Below, one piece after another: positions 52,707 to 56,364 of a stretch of DNA of 64,000 bases. The notes beneath the pieces were generated by a model. That model searched no databases. It was not told the origin of the DNA and saw only the letters and a list, made by a program, of their open reading frames with translations. Each line of letters opens with the position of its first letter. The first letter of the stretch is position 1. Both the position numbers and the translations under genes were made by a program. The DNA lies in the NCBI RefSeq assembly GCF_058153355.1, contig NZ_CM177019.1; one strand, written 5' to 3'.

Positions 52707-52780
52707 GCGGGCGTAGTTCAATGGTAGAACGAGAGCTTCCCAAGCTCTATACGAGGGTTCGATTCCCTTCGTCCGCTCCA
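52707..52780 (+). tRNA. glyU: tRNA-Gly (anticodon CCC)
   Basis: 74-nt sequence gcgggcgtagttcaatggtagaacgagagcttcccaagctctatacgagggttcgattcccttcgtccgctcca with cloverleaf arms and encoded CCA; the island starts immediately 3' of it. Confidence 0.92.
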
Positions 52781-52944
52781 AACAAACATTTCTCAACGTC
52801 TACTAAAGTCCATCAAACCCACGAGTATCAAGCCTTCCAGCCATTTTCATAGTTTATTAACGTCTACTCACAACTACCAGAATCTACACACAGAAGTGTA
52901 TAGTAATGCGTATAGGACAAAATTTATTTTTTGGAGCTATACAC

Positions 52945-54309
52945 ATGCTGCTTTCAGACCTTGCCATCAGGCGCGCGAAGCCGAAAGAAAAGGCTTATAC
53001 ACTCAATGACGGTAACGGGCTTTCGTTGCTCATTGAGCCGAACGGTTCGAAAGGGTGGCGACTGCGCTACAGGTTTGCAGGAAAGCCCAAAATGTTGTCG
53101 TTGGGTGTGTACCCTGATGTGTCTCTGTCTGATGCCAGGGCGGCAAGGGATGAGGCTAAAAGGCTTCTTGCTGGTGGTATAAATCCAAGTGAGGCCAGAA
53201 AAGCCCAAAAGCGAGAACAGGCGAGCAAATTTGGCAATACTTTTGAGGGTATCGCTCGCGAATGGTACGAAAAGCGGATCGACAGGTGGTCATCGTCATA
53301 CGCCGAGGAAATGATCGAGACGTTTGAAAAAGACGTTTTTCCGTACATTGGCGGTAGGCCGATCGCAGAAATTAAGCCGATGGAATTGCTGGCGGTTCTT
53401 TCCCGTCTTAATGACCGTGGTGCGACTGAAAAATTGCGTAAGGTTCGCCAGCGATGTGGCGAGGTGTTCCGGTACGCAATCATCACCGGACGCGCCGAAT
53501 ATAATCCAGCCCCTGACCTGGTGAGCGCATTTGCTCCACATAAAAAAGAGCATTACGCCTGTTTGAAGGCCGATGAACTGCCGGAATTTTTCCGCGTTTT
53601 TAATACGTACACCGGAAGCCAGATCGTCAAACTGGCAATGCGGCTATTAATTCTGACAGGTGTCAGACCCGGGGAATTACGGCAGGCAGAATGGCGGGAG
53701 ATCGATTTTGATAATCGTTTGTGGGAAGTGCCTAAAGAACGAATGAAGATGCGCCGTCCGCATTGCGTGCCATTACCAGAACAGGCGATAAAAATACTGG
53801 AGCAGTTAAAAAACATGACAGGTCAGTATCAGTTTATTTTCCCCGGTCGTATTCACCACAGTAAACCAATGAGTGAAATGGCAATGAATGTGCTCATTCG
53901 TCGTATTGGCTACGCCGGGCGCGTTACTGGTCATGGATTCCGGCACACCATGAGCACCATTTTGCATGAGCAGGGCTATAACACCGCGTGGATAGAGACA
54001 CAGCTTGCGCACGCCGATAAAAACTCAATTCGTGGCACATACAACCATGCGCAATATCTGGATGGCAGACGCGAAATGCTCCAGTGGTATGCCGACTATA
54101 TGGATTCGCTCGAGCATGGCGGAAATGTGGTGCATGGTGAGTTCGGAAAATGCGGGGGACTGGTTGAGTATACAGTAGTAGACTTTGAGCGACTAAAAAC
54201 GGCTGTGTCTAGGGTCGCTCCTGAAAACCCGTACACCTCTGCGGGCTGGCACAGCCACTATGGTAGAGGGCGCGAGGTGACGCGTGATCGATATTGCCGA
54301 ATTACTTAA
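52945..54309 (+). CDS. int: tyrosine-type site-specific integrase, P4-like (tRNA-associated)
   Basis: ORF 52906..54309; start assigned to ATG 52945 with GGAG 8 nt upstream (MLLSDLAIRRAKPKEKAYTLNDGNGLSLLIEPNGSKGWRLRYRF...); C-terminal catalytic residues (HGFRHTMST, Y in GTYNHAQY). Confidence 0.9.
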   Translation: MLLSDLAIRRAKPKEKAYTLNDGNGLSLLIEPNGSKGWRLRYRFAGKPKMLSLGVYPDVSLSDARAARDEAKRLLAGGINPSEARKAQKREQASKFGNTFEGIAREWYEKRIDRWSSSYAEEMIETFEKDVFPYIGGRPIAEIKPMELLAVLSRLNDRGATEKLRKVRQRCGEVFRYAIITGRAEYNPAPDLVSAFAPHKKEHYACLKADELPEFFRVFNTYTGSQIVKLAMRLLILTGVRPGELRQAEWREIDFDNRLWEVPKERMKMRRPHCVPLPEQAIKILEQLKNMTGQYQFIFPGRIHHSKPMSEMAMNVLIRRIGYAGRVTGHGFRHTMSTILHEQGYNTAWIETQLAHADKNSIRGTYNHAQYLDGRREMLQWYADYMDSLEHGGNVVHGEFGKCGGLVEYTVVDFERLKTAVSRVAPENPYTSAGWHSHYGRGREVTRDRYCRIT

Positions 54310-54604
54310 CGCAGAAAAGAATAATTTCATTAGCCTGAGAGAGTTAATAGAGCGTATTAAATTATCTCAACCGAAAGCTACTACATCCCAGATAGTAAGT
54401 TTTCTTTATCAGACGCGGCAGAAATTACCCGAATGGGTTAAGTGGGATGAAATGATGGGCATTGAGCAAACATCGGAGAATCCTTTTGATGGGGATTGGT
54501 CTTTATCAGAGGTTCTTGAAGGCATTTTAAGACTAGGCTTTGTGCCAGAGGTTGAAGATTCTGTACCCCTCGCTATCGATGATAGCGACGATATTCCGTA
54601 TTGA
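54284..54604 (+). CDS. hypothetical protein (106 aa, AT-rich gene; GTG start, overlaps int 3' end)
   Basis: ORF with SD-like gagg upstream of GTG 54284; no recognisable domain; start uncertain. Confidence 0.45.
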   Translation: MIDIAELLNAEKNNFISLRELIERIKLSQPKATTSQIVSFLYQTRQKLPEWVKWDEMMGIEQTSENPFDGDWSLSEVLEGILRLGFVPEVEDSVPLAIDDSDDIPY

Positions 54605-54623: not shown

Positions 54624-55067
54624 ATGGCAGATGAAGTTTATTTGGCTCGTGCTTGTGATAAGTATGGTTTTCGTCGAGCAGAGCTTAAAGAATTTGCTGA
54701 AAAACTAGGGGTTAATTTATTTTCCCCAATGGATGAAATAACCCAGTCCATTCCTGAGGTTGCTGCTAGTGATTCTTTGAATAATGGGCCGACTGTTGAT
54801 GAATTACGTGCGGAAATTGCTTTACTTAAAGCGCGAATTGAAGAACTTGAAAGCGAACGACCAATTCTCTTAAATAAATACAGGGATAATGATCCGCTAT
54901 ATCTGGCTATCGAGATTAGAAACAGAGAGTGGGCCAATTACGACCCGGAGAATGATCGCGCCACCAGGGGAAACCAGGGCGCGATTACTACTGAGCTTGA
55001 AAAACGAGGTTTTACCTCCCGACAGGCCGCATCTATTGAGCTTGTCGCCTGTCCTATCAAACGATGA
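54624..55067 (+). CDS. hypothetical protein (147 aa, predicted coiled-coil segment)
   Basis: ATG with SD aaggtga 7 nt upstream; heptad-like VDELRAEIALLKARIEELESE; no recognisable domain. Confidence 0.55.
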   Translation: MADEVYLARACDKYGFRRAELKEFAEKLGVNLFSPMDEITQSIPEVAASDSLNNGPTVDELRAEIALLKARIEELESERPILLNKYRDNDPLYLAIEIRNREWANYDPENDRATRGNQGAITTELEKRGFTSRQAASIELVACPIKR

Positions 55068-55072
55068 AGCCT

Positions 55073-55219
55073 TACCCTAGAGGTATCTCATGTTTTGTTC
55101 GCGTCTCACCCTAAGGGTAATCAGACCTCACCCTTAGGGTATTTTTGTATGCTTTCCCATCAATTTTACTATTACCCTTAGGGTAAAAATATTCCCGATT
55201 ACCATTAGGCCTGAGGGTA
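55073..55219. promoter_or_regulatory. array of palindromic operator-like sites (consensus ACCCTwAGGGT) upstream of alpA
   Basis: Sites at 55073-55085 (taccctagaggta, imperfect), 55109-55119 (accctaagggt), 55130-55140 (acccttagggt), 55174-55184 (acccttagggt) and a half-site gagggta at 55213-55219. Confidence 0.6.
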
Positions 55220-55287
55220 TGAAAATATTCGTTATTTCTGTGCCATGATTACCTCGTCAAATTGAGTAGACGTTATGAGGTAAATAT

Positions 55288-55485
55288 ATGTCAAATACGC
55301 TTATTCGTTTAACGGAAGTTCAGCGTAGAACTGGATATAGCAAGGCATGGATTTATCGCCTTATGGGGCAAGGTAAATTTCCTGCATCAGTTAAAATTGG
55401 CTCGCGAGCTATTGCTTTCGTTGAGAGTGAAATTGACGAGTGGATTAATCAGCGTATTGCTGAATCACGCGGAACAGCTACCTGA
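55288..55485 (+). CDS. alpA: AlpA-family phage/island transcriptional regulator (excisionase-like HTH)
   Basis: 65-aa ORF MSNTLIRLTEVQRRTGYSKAWIYRLMGQGKFPASVKIGSRAIAFVESEIDEWI..., strong SD gaggtaaa. Confidence 0.85.
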   Translation: MSNTLIRLTEVQRRTGYSKAWIYRLMGQGKFPASVKIGSRAIAFVESEIDEWINQRIAESRGTAT

Positions 55486-55563: not shown

Positions 55564-56364
55564 ATGAAATTTCCAAAAACGCCCATACAGGGGCAGGGCT
55601 TCGTTCGGCTTGAAAACCAGAATCTGCAAAATTTTGGCAAAATTATCCCGGTTATTTCCGGCGTTATTGGCGGGCGTGAAACCAATATTGTTAGCGCCAG
55701 AGCGTTGCATAAGGCGCTCGGGGTAGGCCGTGATTTCACAACCTGGATTAAAGTACGCATTGATGAGTACGGATTTAAAAAGGGCGTGGATTTTGAATTC
55801 GTAGAAAATTTGACCTCCCCCAATCCGGTGAGCGCAAAATCTCGCCAACGTATAGAGCACGACTACCTGAGCACTATCAACATGGCGAAAGAACTGGCGA
55901 TGGTCGAACGCACCGAACAGGGCCGCGCCGTTCGTCAGTATTTCATCAAATGCGAGGAGGAGCTACACAAGGTAGCGCCTGTGCGTTCCGCAGCGTTACG
56001 CCGGGAACTGAAAGCCCGTATCACTGTTGCCAGCTACTTTAAGCCAATGTGCGCCGCGCTGGAGGCGTACCGGGCAGAACTGGGTAAAAACACTCTACAG
56101 CACCACTACACCACGGAAGCTAATATGCTGGCGCGTATCGTGCTGGGTGGCATGACTGCAAAACAGTGGGCACTGGCGAACGGCATCACAAGCGAACCAC
56201 GCGACCACATGAGCACGTTGCAGCTTGAGCACCTTTCTTACCTTGAGCAGAGCAATATCACGCTGATTGAGTTAGGCCAGGACTACCACCAGCGGAAAGC
56301 TGAATTAATTCGTCTTTCGCAGCGCTGGTTAGCCCGTCGCATGGAGGAAAACAACCATGTGTAA
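55564..56364 (+). CDS. phage antirepressor-like protein (AntA/KilAC-type domains)
   Basis: 266-aa ORF with SD aggag; N-terminal region resembles AntA/Bro-type antirepressor domain; assignment by recall, moderate confidence. Confidence 0.6.
   Translation: MKFPKTPIQGQGFVRLENQNLQNFGKIIPVISGVIGGRETNIVSARALHKALGVGRDFTTWIKVRIDEYGFKKGVDFEFVENLTSPNPVSAKSRQRIEHDYLSTINMAKELAMVERTEQGRAVRQYFIKCEEELHKVAPVRSAALRRELKARITVASYFKPMCAALEAYRAELGKNTLQHHYTTEANMLARIVLGGMTAKQWALANGITSEPRDHMSTLQLEHLSYLEQSNITLIELGQDYHQRKAELIRLSQRWLARRMEENNHV

What the first reader, a model, noticed from the sequence alone, without database searches (positions are those of the whole stretch)
55073..55219. Array of four to five ACCCTwAGGGT palindromes upstream of alpA
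Three perfect 11-bp palindromes (55109, 55130, 55174), one degenerate copy (55073) and a half-site (55213) are spaced 21-44 bp apart in the 220-bp gap before alpA. This looks like a cooperative operator for a dimeric DNA-binding protein (AlpA itself, the upstream 147-aa protein, or a helper-phage factor) and probably gates island induction.
Basis: seen in the sequence. Interest (0 to 1): 0.55.

Follow-up and report, generated by a model that had tools for sequence, protein, structure and literature searches.

The report
Operator array for satellite-island regulator
A phased row of 11-bp palindromes in front of the master-switch gene alpA of a phage-satellite island is real, and it travels with an uncharacterised coiled-coil protein encoded just upstream rather than with AlpA, so that protein is probably the island's own site-specific regulator of alpA.

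Summary
ACCCTNAGGGT occurs exactly three times in 64 kb (expected 0.02), all within 77 bp of the 220-bp gap before alpA. A decayed copy (55074) and a conserved weak proximal element (55201-55218) complete the row. Site centres lie about 2, 3 and 4 helical turns apart.

The island sits at tRNA-Gly(CCC). It is an IS-damaged relative of the Gram-negative phage-inducible chromosomal island EcCICFT073 (primase 93% identical).

Across 90 related loci plus ten loci encoding eight distant homologues, the palindromes track the 64-residue C-terminal domain of the upstream 147-aa protein, called "X" here. All 32 distinct gaps behind that domain carry the motif; none of 42 other gaps does.

X has a three-heptad zipper and a confidently modelled four-helix domain. 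That domain has no Pfam, NCBIfam, PHROG, PADLOC or PDB match.

Best reading: zipper-held X dimers bind the array cooperatively and hold alpA off, or insulate it from int-X read-through, until a helper phage acts on X's variable N-terminal module. DNA binding, the sign of regulation and the promoter position are all inferred. This is a new variant of a known kind, of moderate-to-high interest.

The parts
55074..55084 (.). Site 1, a decayed palindrome ACCCTAGAGGT, 6 bp after the X stop codon
   Evidence: 2 mismatches. Diverged relatives keep a good site at this position.
55108..55118 (.). Site 2, exact palindrome ACCCTAAGGGT
55130..55140 (.). Site 3, exact palindrome ACCCTTAGGGT
55172..55186 (.). 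Site 4, the best site: 15-bp dyad TTACCCTTAGGGTAA with core 55174-55184. Its centre is 109 bp before the alpA ATG.
   Evidence: In 28 of the 30 distinct arrays tabulated there is a site centred 107-109 bp before the ATG, or 162 bp before it in the L210/L235/L245 subgroup.
55201..55218 (.). Proximal weak composite element ACCAT-TAGGCCTG-AGGGT, which includes GGCCTGAGGGT at 55208-55218
   Evidence: Invariant in the E. coli relatives. Diverged loci carry CCCTCATGCCTGAGGGTATGA here.
54624..55067 (+). Gene X, 147 aa: a short N-terminal helical pair, a 3-heptad zipper (about residues 55-78) and a 64-residue C-terminal four-helix domain ending IELVACPIKR. It is the proposed reader of the palindromes.
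   Evidence: Association with the motif.
54284..54604 (+). ORF106. It is homologous to the N-terminal part of the 250-265-aa single-gene forms of X. It is the proposed partner or sensor module.
   Evidence: shared MIDI..AEL...FI.LRE start. One search found p106 homologues just upstream of X in 9 viral loci.
55288..55485 (+). alpA, 65 aa, Phage_AlpA PF05930. This is the regulated gene.
   Evidence: (E = 2.8e-19). It is 36% identical to EcCICFT073 AlpA.
55241..55249 (+). Candidate extended -10 element TGcCATGAT (CATGCCATCAT in relatives). Uncertain.
   Evidence: Read from the sequence and from conservation. The consensus scan found no promoter here.
55251..55283 (+). alpA leader stem (55251-55259 with 55275-55283) that would pair the Shine-Dalgarno GAGG at 55277-55280. 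Weak evidence.
52906..54309 (+). P4-type tyrosine integrase. It is first in the int-ORF106-X run of co-oriented genes.
52707..52780 (+). tRNA-Gly(CCC), the integration site and left end of the island
   Evidence: Relatives sit at the same site.

Best explanation
The palindromes form the operator array of the protein encoded immediately upstream (X, 147 aa, here working with the separate 106-aa ORF).

Proposed mechanism, step by step:
1. X dimerises through a three-heptad leucine zipper.
2. Each dimer reads one ACCCT-N-AGGGT dyad through its conserved C-terminal four-helix domain.
3. Four strong or medium sites on one face of the helix help load the weak proximal element that abuts the alpA promoter and leader.
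4. The occupied array keeps alpA silent. It does so by blocking the alpA promoter, by acting as a roadblock to transcription reading through from int-ORF106-X, or both. No intrinsic terminator is predicted in the gap.
5. A helper-phage product acting on the variable N-terminal module of X releases the array.
6. AlpA is then made and switches on excision and replication of the island.

Shown here: the array, its phasing, its conservation, and its exclusive association with the X domain and not with AlpA.

Inferred: DNA binding by X, the dimer, the sign of regulation (repression is my estimate, at about 60:40 over activation), and the helper input.
For: - Motif enrichment is 3 copies against 0.02 expected.
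- The palindromes and their roughly 10.7-bp-multiple spacing are kept in arrays whose flanking sequence has diverged.
- In 36 viral-contig loci with the X-alpA layout, every exact copy lay in the gap.
- All 32 distinct gaps behind an X C-terminal domain have the motif, against 0 of 42 other gaps. Fisher p was 1e-18 before L226 and L231 were reclassified as X-bearing.
- Distant X homologues (34-50% identical in the domain) keep ACCCTNAGGGT (L271: three exact copies plus two weaker ones) or the same 5-1-5 dyad with ACTAT arms (L265, L269, L274). Their AlpAs share only 9 of 43 to 32 of 57 aligned residues with the window's.
- Heptad hydrophobics fall at V55, L58, I62, L65, I69 and L72. AF2 models a long helix at 58-78, and there are weak bZIP/DivIC hits.
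- The C-terminal domain models at pLDDT 94.
- X is fused to many different N-terminal domains, as expected of a sensor joined to a constant DNA-binding module.
- No + strand terminator is predicted between X and alpA.
Against: - No binding experiment exists.
- The domain is not markedly basic, by my own residue count.
- X and the array are physically adjacent, so linkage alone inflates their co-occurrence among close relatives.
- The promoter could not be placed, so the choice between repression and activation rests on indirect argument.
- EcCICFT073 lacks X yet is helper-inducible (PMC6092414), so X is not universally needed.
- Some distant homologues have other repeats (L275: ACCCGACA) or no clear dyad (L272).
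Confidence: 0.45

Rival explanations
1. X binds the array as above but acts as an activator. Upstream dimers recruit or stabilise RNA polymerase at a weak alpA promoter once a helper signal converts X to its active form.
For: - No good -35 element is recognisable.
- If the -10 is TGcCATGAT at 55241-55249, the proximal element ends about 25 bp upstream of it, a geometry typical of activators.
- The last full site and the proximal element keep fixed distances from the ATG.
Against: - X lies in the int-X run of co-oriented genes and would be present in the quiescent state.
- The number of sites varies from 3 to 6 through 33-bp unit gain and loss, which suits occupancy-type repression more than precise activation.
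- The array begins 6-18 bp after the X stop codon with no terminator, which fits insulation.
- X-less islands still activate alpA (PMC6092414).
Confidence: 0.25
2. AlpA itself binds the palindromes, as positive autoregulation of the kind shown for EcCICFT073.
For: - AlpA activates its own promoter in EcCICFT073 and EcCIMP1 (PMC6092414, PMC11773190).
- The array is directly upstream of alpA.
Against: - L205-L209 have an AlpA with the same residues from position 5 onward, but no palindromes and a different repeat set.
- Three AlpA proteins that are each identical in sequence occur both with and without the array.
- L275's AlpA has the same RTGYSKAWIYRL helix as the window's but a different motif, while L271's AlpA has a different helix and the exact motif.
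- The X-less EcCICFT073 gap has 10-bp-phased direct repeats, not dyads.
Confidence: 0.04
3. A helper-phage or host protein reads the palindromes, and X is merely linked to them (for example as an accessory or defence gene matched to the same helper).
For: - Helper phages induce alpA transcription by an unidentified factor (PMC6092414).
- X has no recognisable DNA-binding fold.
Against: - The motif is kept next to X homologues from many genera and from metagenomes.
- Other islands integrated at the same or other tRNA sites of E. coli lack the motif entirely.
- This reading needs an extra unobserved factor whose specificity happens to follow X.
Confidence: 0.12
4. The array is not a transcriptional operator. 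It could be a replication origin with iterons, a packaging or partition site, or arm sites for integrase or excisionase.
For: Phased repeat arrays occur at origins and centromere-like sites. From general knowledge, P4 uses repeated octamers at ori and crr.
Against: - The sites are dyads, not direct iterons.
- They lie 6 kb from the primase and 2.3 kb from the att end.
- They track X, not Int: Int is 54-98% identical across motif-bearing loci and absent next to L265.
- Published PICI origins lie downstream of pri (PMC10111431).
Confidence: 0.04

Closest known systems
SaPI Stl master repressor and its operator (Gram-positive PICIs)
   Same: Both are island-encoded DNA-binding regulators that sit next to int and hold the island's lytic programme off. 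In Stl, a constant DNA-binding part is joined to a variable part that phage proteins target (PMC6695447, PMC9638917). X shows the same constant-plus-variable build.
   Different: Stl has an N-terminal HTH and is transcribed divergently from the genes it represses. X is co-oriented with alpA, its conserved domain is C-terminal and has no known fold match, and it controls an activator gene rather than the whole operon directly. No experiment exists for X.
AlpA autoregulation in EcCICFT073 and EcCIMP1 (Gram-negative PICIs)
   Same: The island type is the same. The primase is 93% identical, and the related islands L001-L006 carry the same YlcI / Icd-like / DUF4222 gene modules as EcCICFT073. The gene controlled is also the same.
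   Different: EcCICFT073 has no gene between int and alpA, and its gap carries phased direct repeats. The window's array does not follow AlpA.
Lambda CI at OR/OL (cooperative operator arrays)
   Same: Both have several dyad sites of graded strength on one helical face next to a promoter, with a weak promoter-proximal site that would depend on cooperativity.
   Different: Lambda operators are 17 bp and are read by an HTH domain.
KorA / KorB-type compact palindromic operators of IncP plasmids (from general knowledge)
   Same: Both use short 12-13-bp perfect palindromes read by small helical dimers.
   Different: Those operators are dispersed singly across many promoters, whereas here they form one local array. 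No sequence or fold relation to X was found.

Membership tests
Gram-negative phage-inducible chromosomal island (GN-PICI) | Tyrosine integrase at the island end next to its attachment site, pointing inward | tested here: met
   tRNA-Gly(CCC) at 52707-52780 is followed by int at 52906-54309.
Gram-negative phage-inducible chromosomal island (GN-PICI) | alpA (Phage_AlpA) downstream of int and co-oriented with it | tested here: met
   PF05930, E = 2.8e-19.
Gram-negative phage-inducible chromosomal island (GN-PICI) | Bro/Ant zone followed by a pri-rep replication gene | tested here: met
   An AntA-like gene lies at 55564-56364. The primase at 61149-62189 is 93% identical to EcCICFT073 Pri but is cut by an IS.
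Gram-negative phage-inducible chromosomal island (GN-PICI) | Induction, packaging and transfer by a helper phage | not testable with these tools
   This copy carries IS66 and IS110-type insertions and a truncated primase, so it is probably not mobile.
Repressor operator array (lambda CI / SaPI Stl type) | Multiple dyad-symmetric sites enriched far above chance | tested here: met
Repressor operator array (lambda CI / SaPI Stl type) | Sites overlap or abut the regulated promoter | tested here: inconclusive
   The array fills the gap up to about 70 bp before the ATG, but no promoter could be placed.
Repressor operator array (lambda CI / SaPI Stl type) | A cognate DNA-binding protein is encoded nearby and co-varies with the sites | tested here: met
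   The X C-terminal domain goes with the motif in 32 of 32 distinct gaps against 0 of 42. Distant homologues keep the dyad.
Repressor operator array (lambda CI / SaPI Stl type) | Demonstrated binding and repression | not testable with these tools
   This needs EMSA or footprinting and reporter assays.
AlpA / Vis / Xis-type autoregulatory or excisionase sites | The site sequence follows the AlpA allele | tested here: not met
   Identical or near-identical AlpAs occur with and without the motif. The recognition helix and the motif are uncoupled.
Iteron-type replication origin (P4 ori/crr, PICI ori) | Direct repeats next to, and specific for, the primase/initiator | tested here: not met
   The sites are dyads 6 kb from pri and are present in loci of several genera irrespective of downstream content.
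Known DNA-binding domain families (Pfam, NCBIfam, PHROG, PADLOC, PDB folds) for X | A significant sequence or structure match | tested here: not met

The most novel reading that the evidence does not exclude
X founds an undescribed family of sequence-specific DNA-binding regulators: a zipper plus a new four-helix domain ending IExVACPIxR. It is the missing island-encoded, helper-sensing master repressor of a large class of Gram-negative PICIs.

The unit [X gene + operator array + alpA promoter] is an exchangeable cassette. At least five unrelated X types, each with its own repeats, have been swapped in front of the same AlpA.
Probability: 0.4. Interest if true: 0.8.

Novelty: new variant of a known kind. 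Interest (0 to 1): 0.62.

Why it matters
In Gram-positive PICIs the switch is understood: the Stl repressor is inactivated by helper-phage proteins. [quoted passage not shown] None of the later papers I found in the held library names one.

A conserved operator array tied to an uncharacterised, modular protein between int and alpA gives a concrete and testable candidate for that missing layer. It comes with a defined DNA target: five sites within 150 bp.

The result also shows that the alpA control region is a swappable cassette. That would explain how closely related islands could answer to different helpers.

Finally, X occurs in the related islands of E. coli O104:H4 and 55989 and its 144-155-aa form is found in Salmonella, Klebsiella, Serratia, Proteus, Yersinia and Pectobacterium, so experiments are easy to set up.

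Tried and rejected
2. Family searches for X and ORF106 in NCBIfam, PHROGs, Pfam and PADLOC found nothing.
3. A PDB sequence profile search returned only coiled-coil noise.
4. Fold searches of the high-confidence C-terminal model found no solved relative. AFDB returned only uncharacterised proteins. The fold therefore neither supports nor refutes DNA binding.
5. Promoter scans in the window and in four diverged loci did not place PalpA. The 'terminator-like' hits there are the palindromes themselves.
6. I considered reading the palindromes as RNA hairpins or terminators. This was rejected because a 5-bp stem with a 1-nt loop cannot form, and the proximal hairpin-like element is not kept in the window.
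7. A literature search for the motif strings returned only unrelated papers.
8. P. aeruginosa AlpA (PMC9371919) is a larger, Q-like antiterminator. It binds a 6-bp element as a monomer and is not a model for this 65-aa protein.
9. I looked by eye for residues in the X domain that change with ACCCT versus ACTAT arms. There are too few independent pairs to call anything.

Full report
**What is in the sequence**

The gap between the stop codon of a 147-aa ORF (54624-55067) and the ATG of alpA (55288) is 220 bp. It holds three exact copies of ACCCT-W-AGGGT, at 55108, 55130 and 55174. These are the only copies in the 64-kb window. Dinucleotide-preserving shuffles give 0.02 copies on average, and none of 100 shuffles reached three.

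A 2-mismatch copy, ACCCTAGAGGT, lies at 55074.

The site centres are 34, 22, 44 and 34 bp apart.

**Context**

- tRNA-Gly(CCC) lies at 52707-52780.
- It is followed by a P4-type integrase, a 106-aa ORF, the 147-aa ORF, and alpA (PF05930, E = 2.8e-19).
- Next come an AntA/Bro-type gene, an IS66 element, and a primase cut by an IS110-type element.
- The primase is 93% identical to the first 340 residues of the Pri protein of EcCICFT073.
- Related islands share the YlcI, Icd-like and DUF4222 modules of EcCICFT073.

The locus is therefore an IS-damaged member of the Gram-negative PICI group. In that group AlpA is the helper-induced, self-activating master switch (PMC6092414, PMC11773190, PMC10111431).

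**Conservation**

167 complete E. coli genomes carry a related segment. In four of them the palindromes are kept. The centre base varies, and the copy number changes through gain or loss of a 33-bp unit.

A pattern scan of viral contigs returned 52 loci. Thirty-six had the layout X homologue, then array, then alpA, and in those every exact copy lay in the gap.

In islands whose AlpA is only 77-88% identical and whose gap is otherwise unalignable, four to six dyads persist. Their spacings are 21-24, 32-33, 42-44 or 54-55 bp, and in most arrays a site is centred 107-109 bp before the ATG. Across the family the core is ACCCT-N-AGGGT with weak tt/aa flanks.

This is a phylogenetic footprint of a protein-binding site with sites on one face of the helix.

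**Who reads it**

I analysed 90 loci: the window, nine of the ten E. coli loci L001-L010 (L004 has no alpA), and 80 viral-contig loci found with an AlpA alignment.

- Every distinct gap that follows a protein ending in the ...IExVACPIxR domain has the motif (32 of 32, after L226 and L231 were shown to encode that domain).
- No gap behind any other upstream gene has it (0 of 42).

AlpA does not follow the motif.

- L205-L209 encode an AlpA that differs from the window's only at residues 2 and 4. They have a different upstream protein and ATGGTGG-type repeats instead.
- Three AlpA proteins, each identical in sequence across loci, occur both behind X with palindromes and behind unrelated genes without them.
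- L275's AlpA has the same RTGYSKAWIYRL helix as the window's but an ACCCGACA motif. L271's AlpA has a different helix but three exact ACCCTNAGGGT copies plus two weaker ones.
- Distant X homologues (34-50% identical in the domain) from metagenomes are again followed by alpA after a gap of about 150-185 bp wherever the contig extends far enough. They carry ACCCTNAGGGT or ACTAT-N-ATAGT dyads of the same 5-1-5 build.

Other upstream gene types have their own repeats. EcCICFT073, which has no such gene, has 10-bp-phased direct repeats.

Linkage inflates the association among close relatives. The deep cases and the natural swaps argue for a functional tie.

**What X is**

The 144-155-aa form is common in Enterobacterales and is always named hypothetical. 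Only 64 clusters at 50% identity exist among 1.84 billion representative proteins. In them, the conserved zipper plus C-terminal domain is fused to many different N-terminal regions.

The window has the two-gene form. ORF106 matches the N-terminus of the 250-265-aa single-gene forms.

Hydrophobic residues at positions 55, 58, 62, 65, 69 and 72 form three heptads. AF2 models a helix at 58-78. The C-terminal 64 residues model as four helices at pLDDT 94.

There is no Pfam, NCBIfam, PHROG or PADLOC hit. There is no significant PDB match. AFDB relatives are all uncharacterised. DNA binding by X is therefore inferred from genomics, not from fold.

**Mechanism**

I propose that zipper-held X dimers occupy the dyads cooperatively. 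I further propose that they keep alpA off, or block transcription reading through from int-ORF106-X, until a helper product acts on the variable module.

Arguments for repression:
- X is co-oriented with int and probably expressed in the quiescent state.
- The array starts 6 bp after the X stop codon, with no predicted terminator.
- The number of sites is variable.
- X-less islands still activate alpA.

Arguments for activation:
- The -35 region is poor.
- The proximal element sits upstream of a possible TGcCATGAT -10.

The promoter could not be placed. I put X binding the array at about 0.7, and repression at about 0.6 given binding.

**Novelty**

Nothing I found in the held literature describes this motif or a regulator between int and alpA. 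The logic (an island regulator with an operator array) is a known kind. The protein family, the compact 5-1-5 operator and the cassette exchange in front of a constant AlpA are new.

Noticed in passing
window 55251-55283: The alpA leader can form a 9-bp stem that pairs the Shine-Dalgarno GAGG (55277-55280). The stem is kept in nine diverged loci, but only one pair shows a two-sided change, and the window's fold scores z = -1.1.
   Followed up: partly
window 52906-54309: The integrase ORF is 467 aa, against 404 aa in relatives. Its last roughly 35 residues match relatives in another reading frame and overlap the start of ORF106. This suggests a frameshift or stop-codon loss. The annotated start also looks about 13 codons too far upstream.
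   Followed up: partly
window 58075-60438 and 62248-63423: An IS66-family element (three ORFs) and an IS110-type transposase interrupt the island. The second cuts the primase at residue 346 of about 584. This copy is probably immobile.
   Followed up: partly
window 63558-63999: Two identical 78-aa ORFs start 205 bp apart (63558-63794 and 63763-63999). This indicates a tandem duplication at the end of the window.
   Followed up: no
L011-L090 (genome contigs): Pairs of ACCCTNAGGGT spaced 8-36 bp apart occur at many places in the genomes of Chloroflexi MAGs (Anaerolineae, Ardenticatenaceae, Ca. Leptovillus, Ca. Leptofilum). This looks like a dispersed repeat family unrelated to the island.
   Followed up: no
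L006, L009, L205-L209, L213, L229, L233, L238 (X-alpA gaps): A second upstream-protein type has a C-terminal domain distantly homologous to X's (..AVNLILRP..GRRxKK; phmmer E of about 6e-4 to 7e-4, 22-27% identity). It goes with ATGGTGG/CCACCAT inverted repeats. DUF6387-type loci (L007) have TTATCCGCTTTGA three times.
   Followed up: partly
L264 7188-7252 (EcCICFT073 int-alpA gap): Five to six 10-bp-phased direct repeats of (G)AACAAC, and a further ACACAAC-rich stretch just before alpA. These are possible AlpA sites in the experimentally studied island.
   Followed up: no
L265-L267: A distant X-alpA module lies directly downstream of a large terminase gene rather than an integrase. The module is therefore not tied to int.
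   Followed up: no
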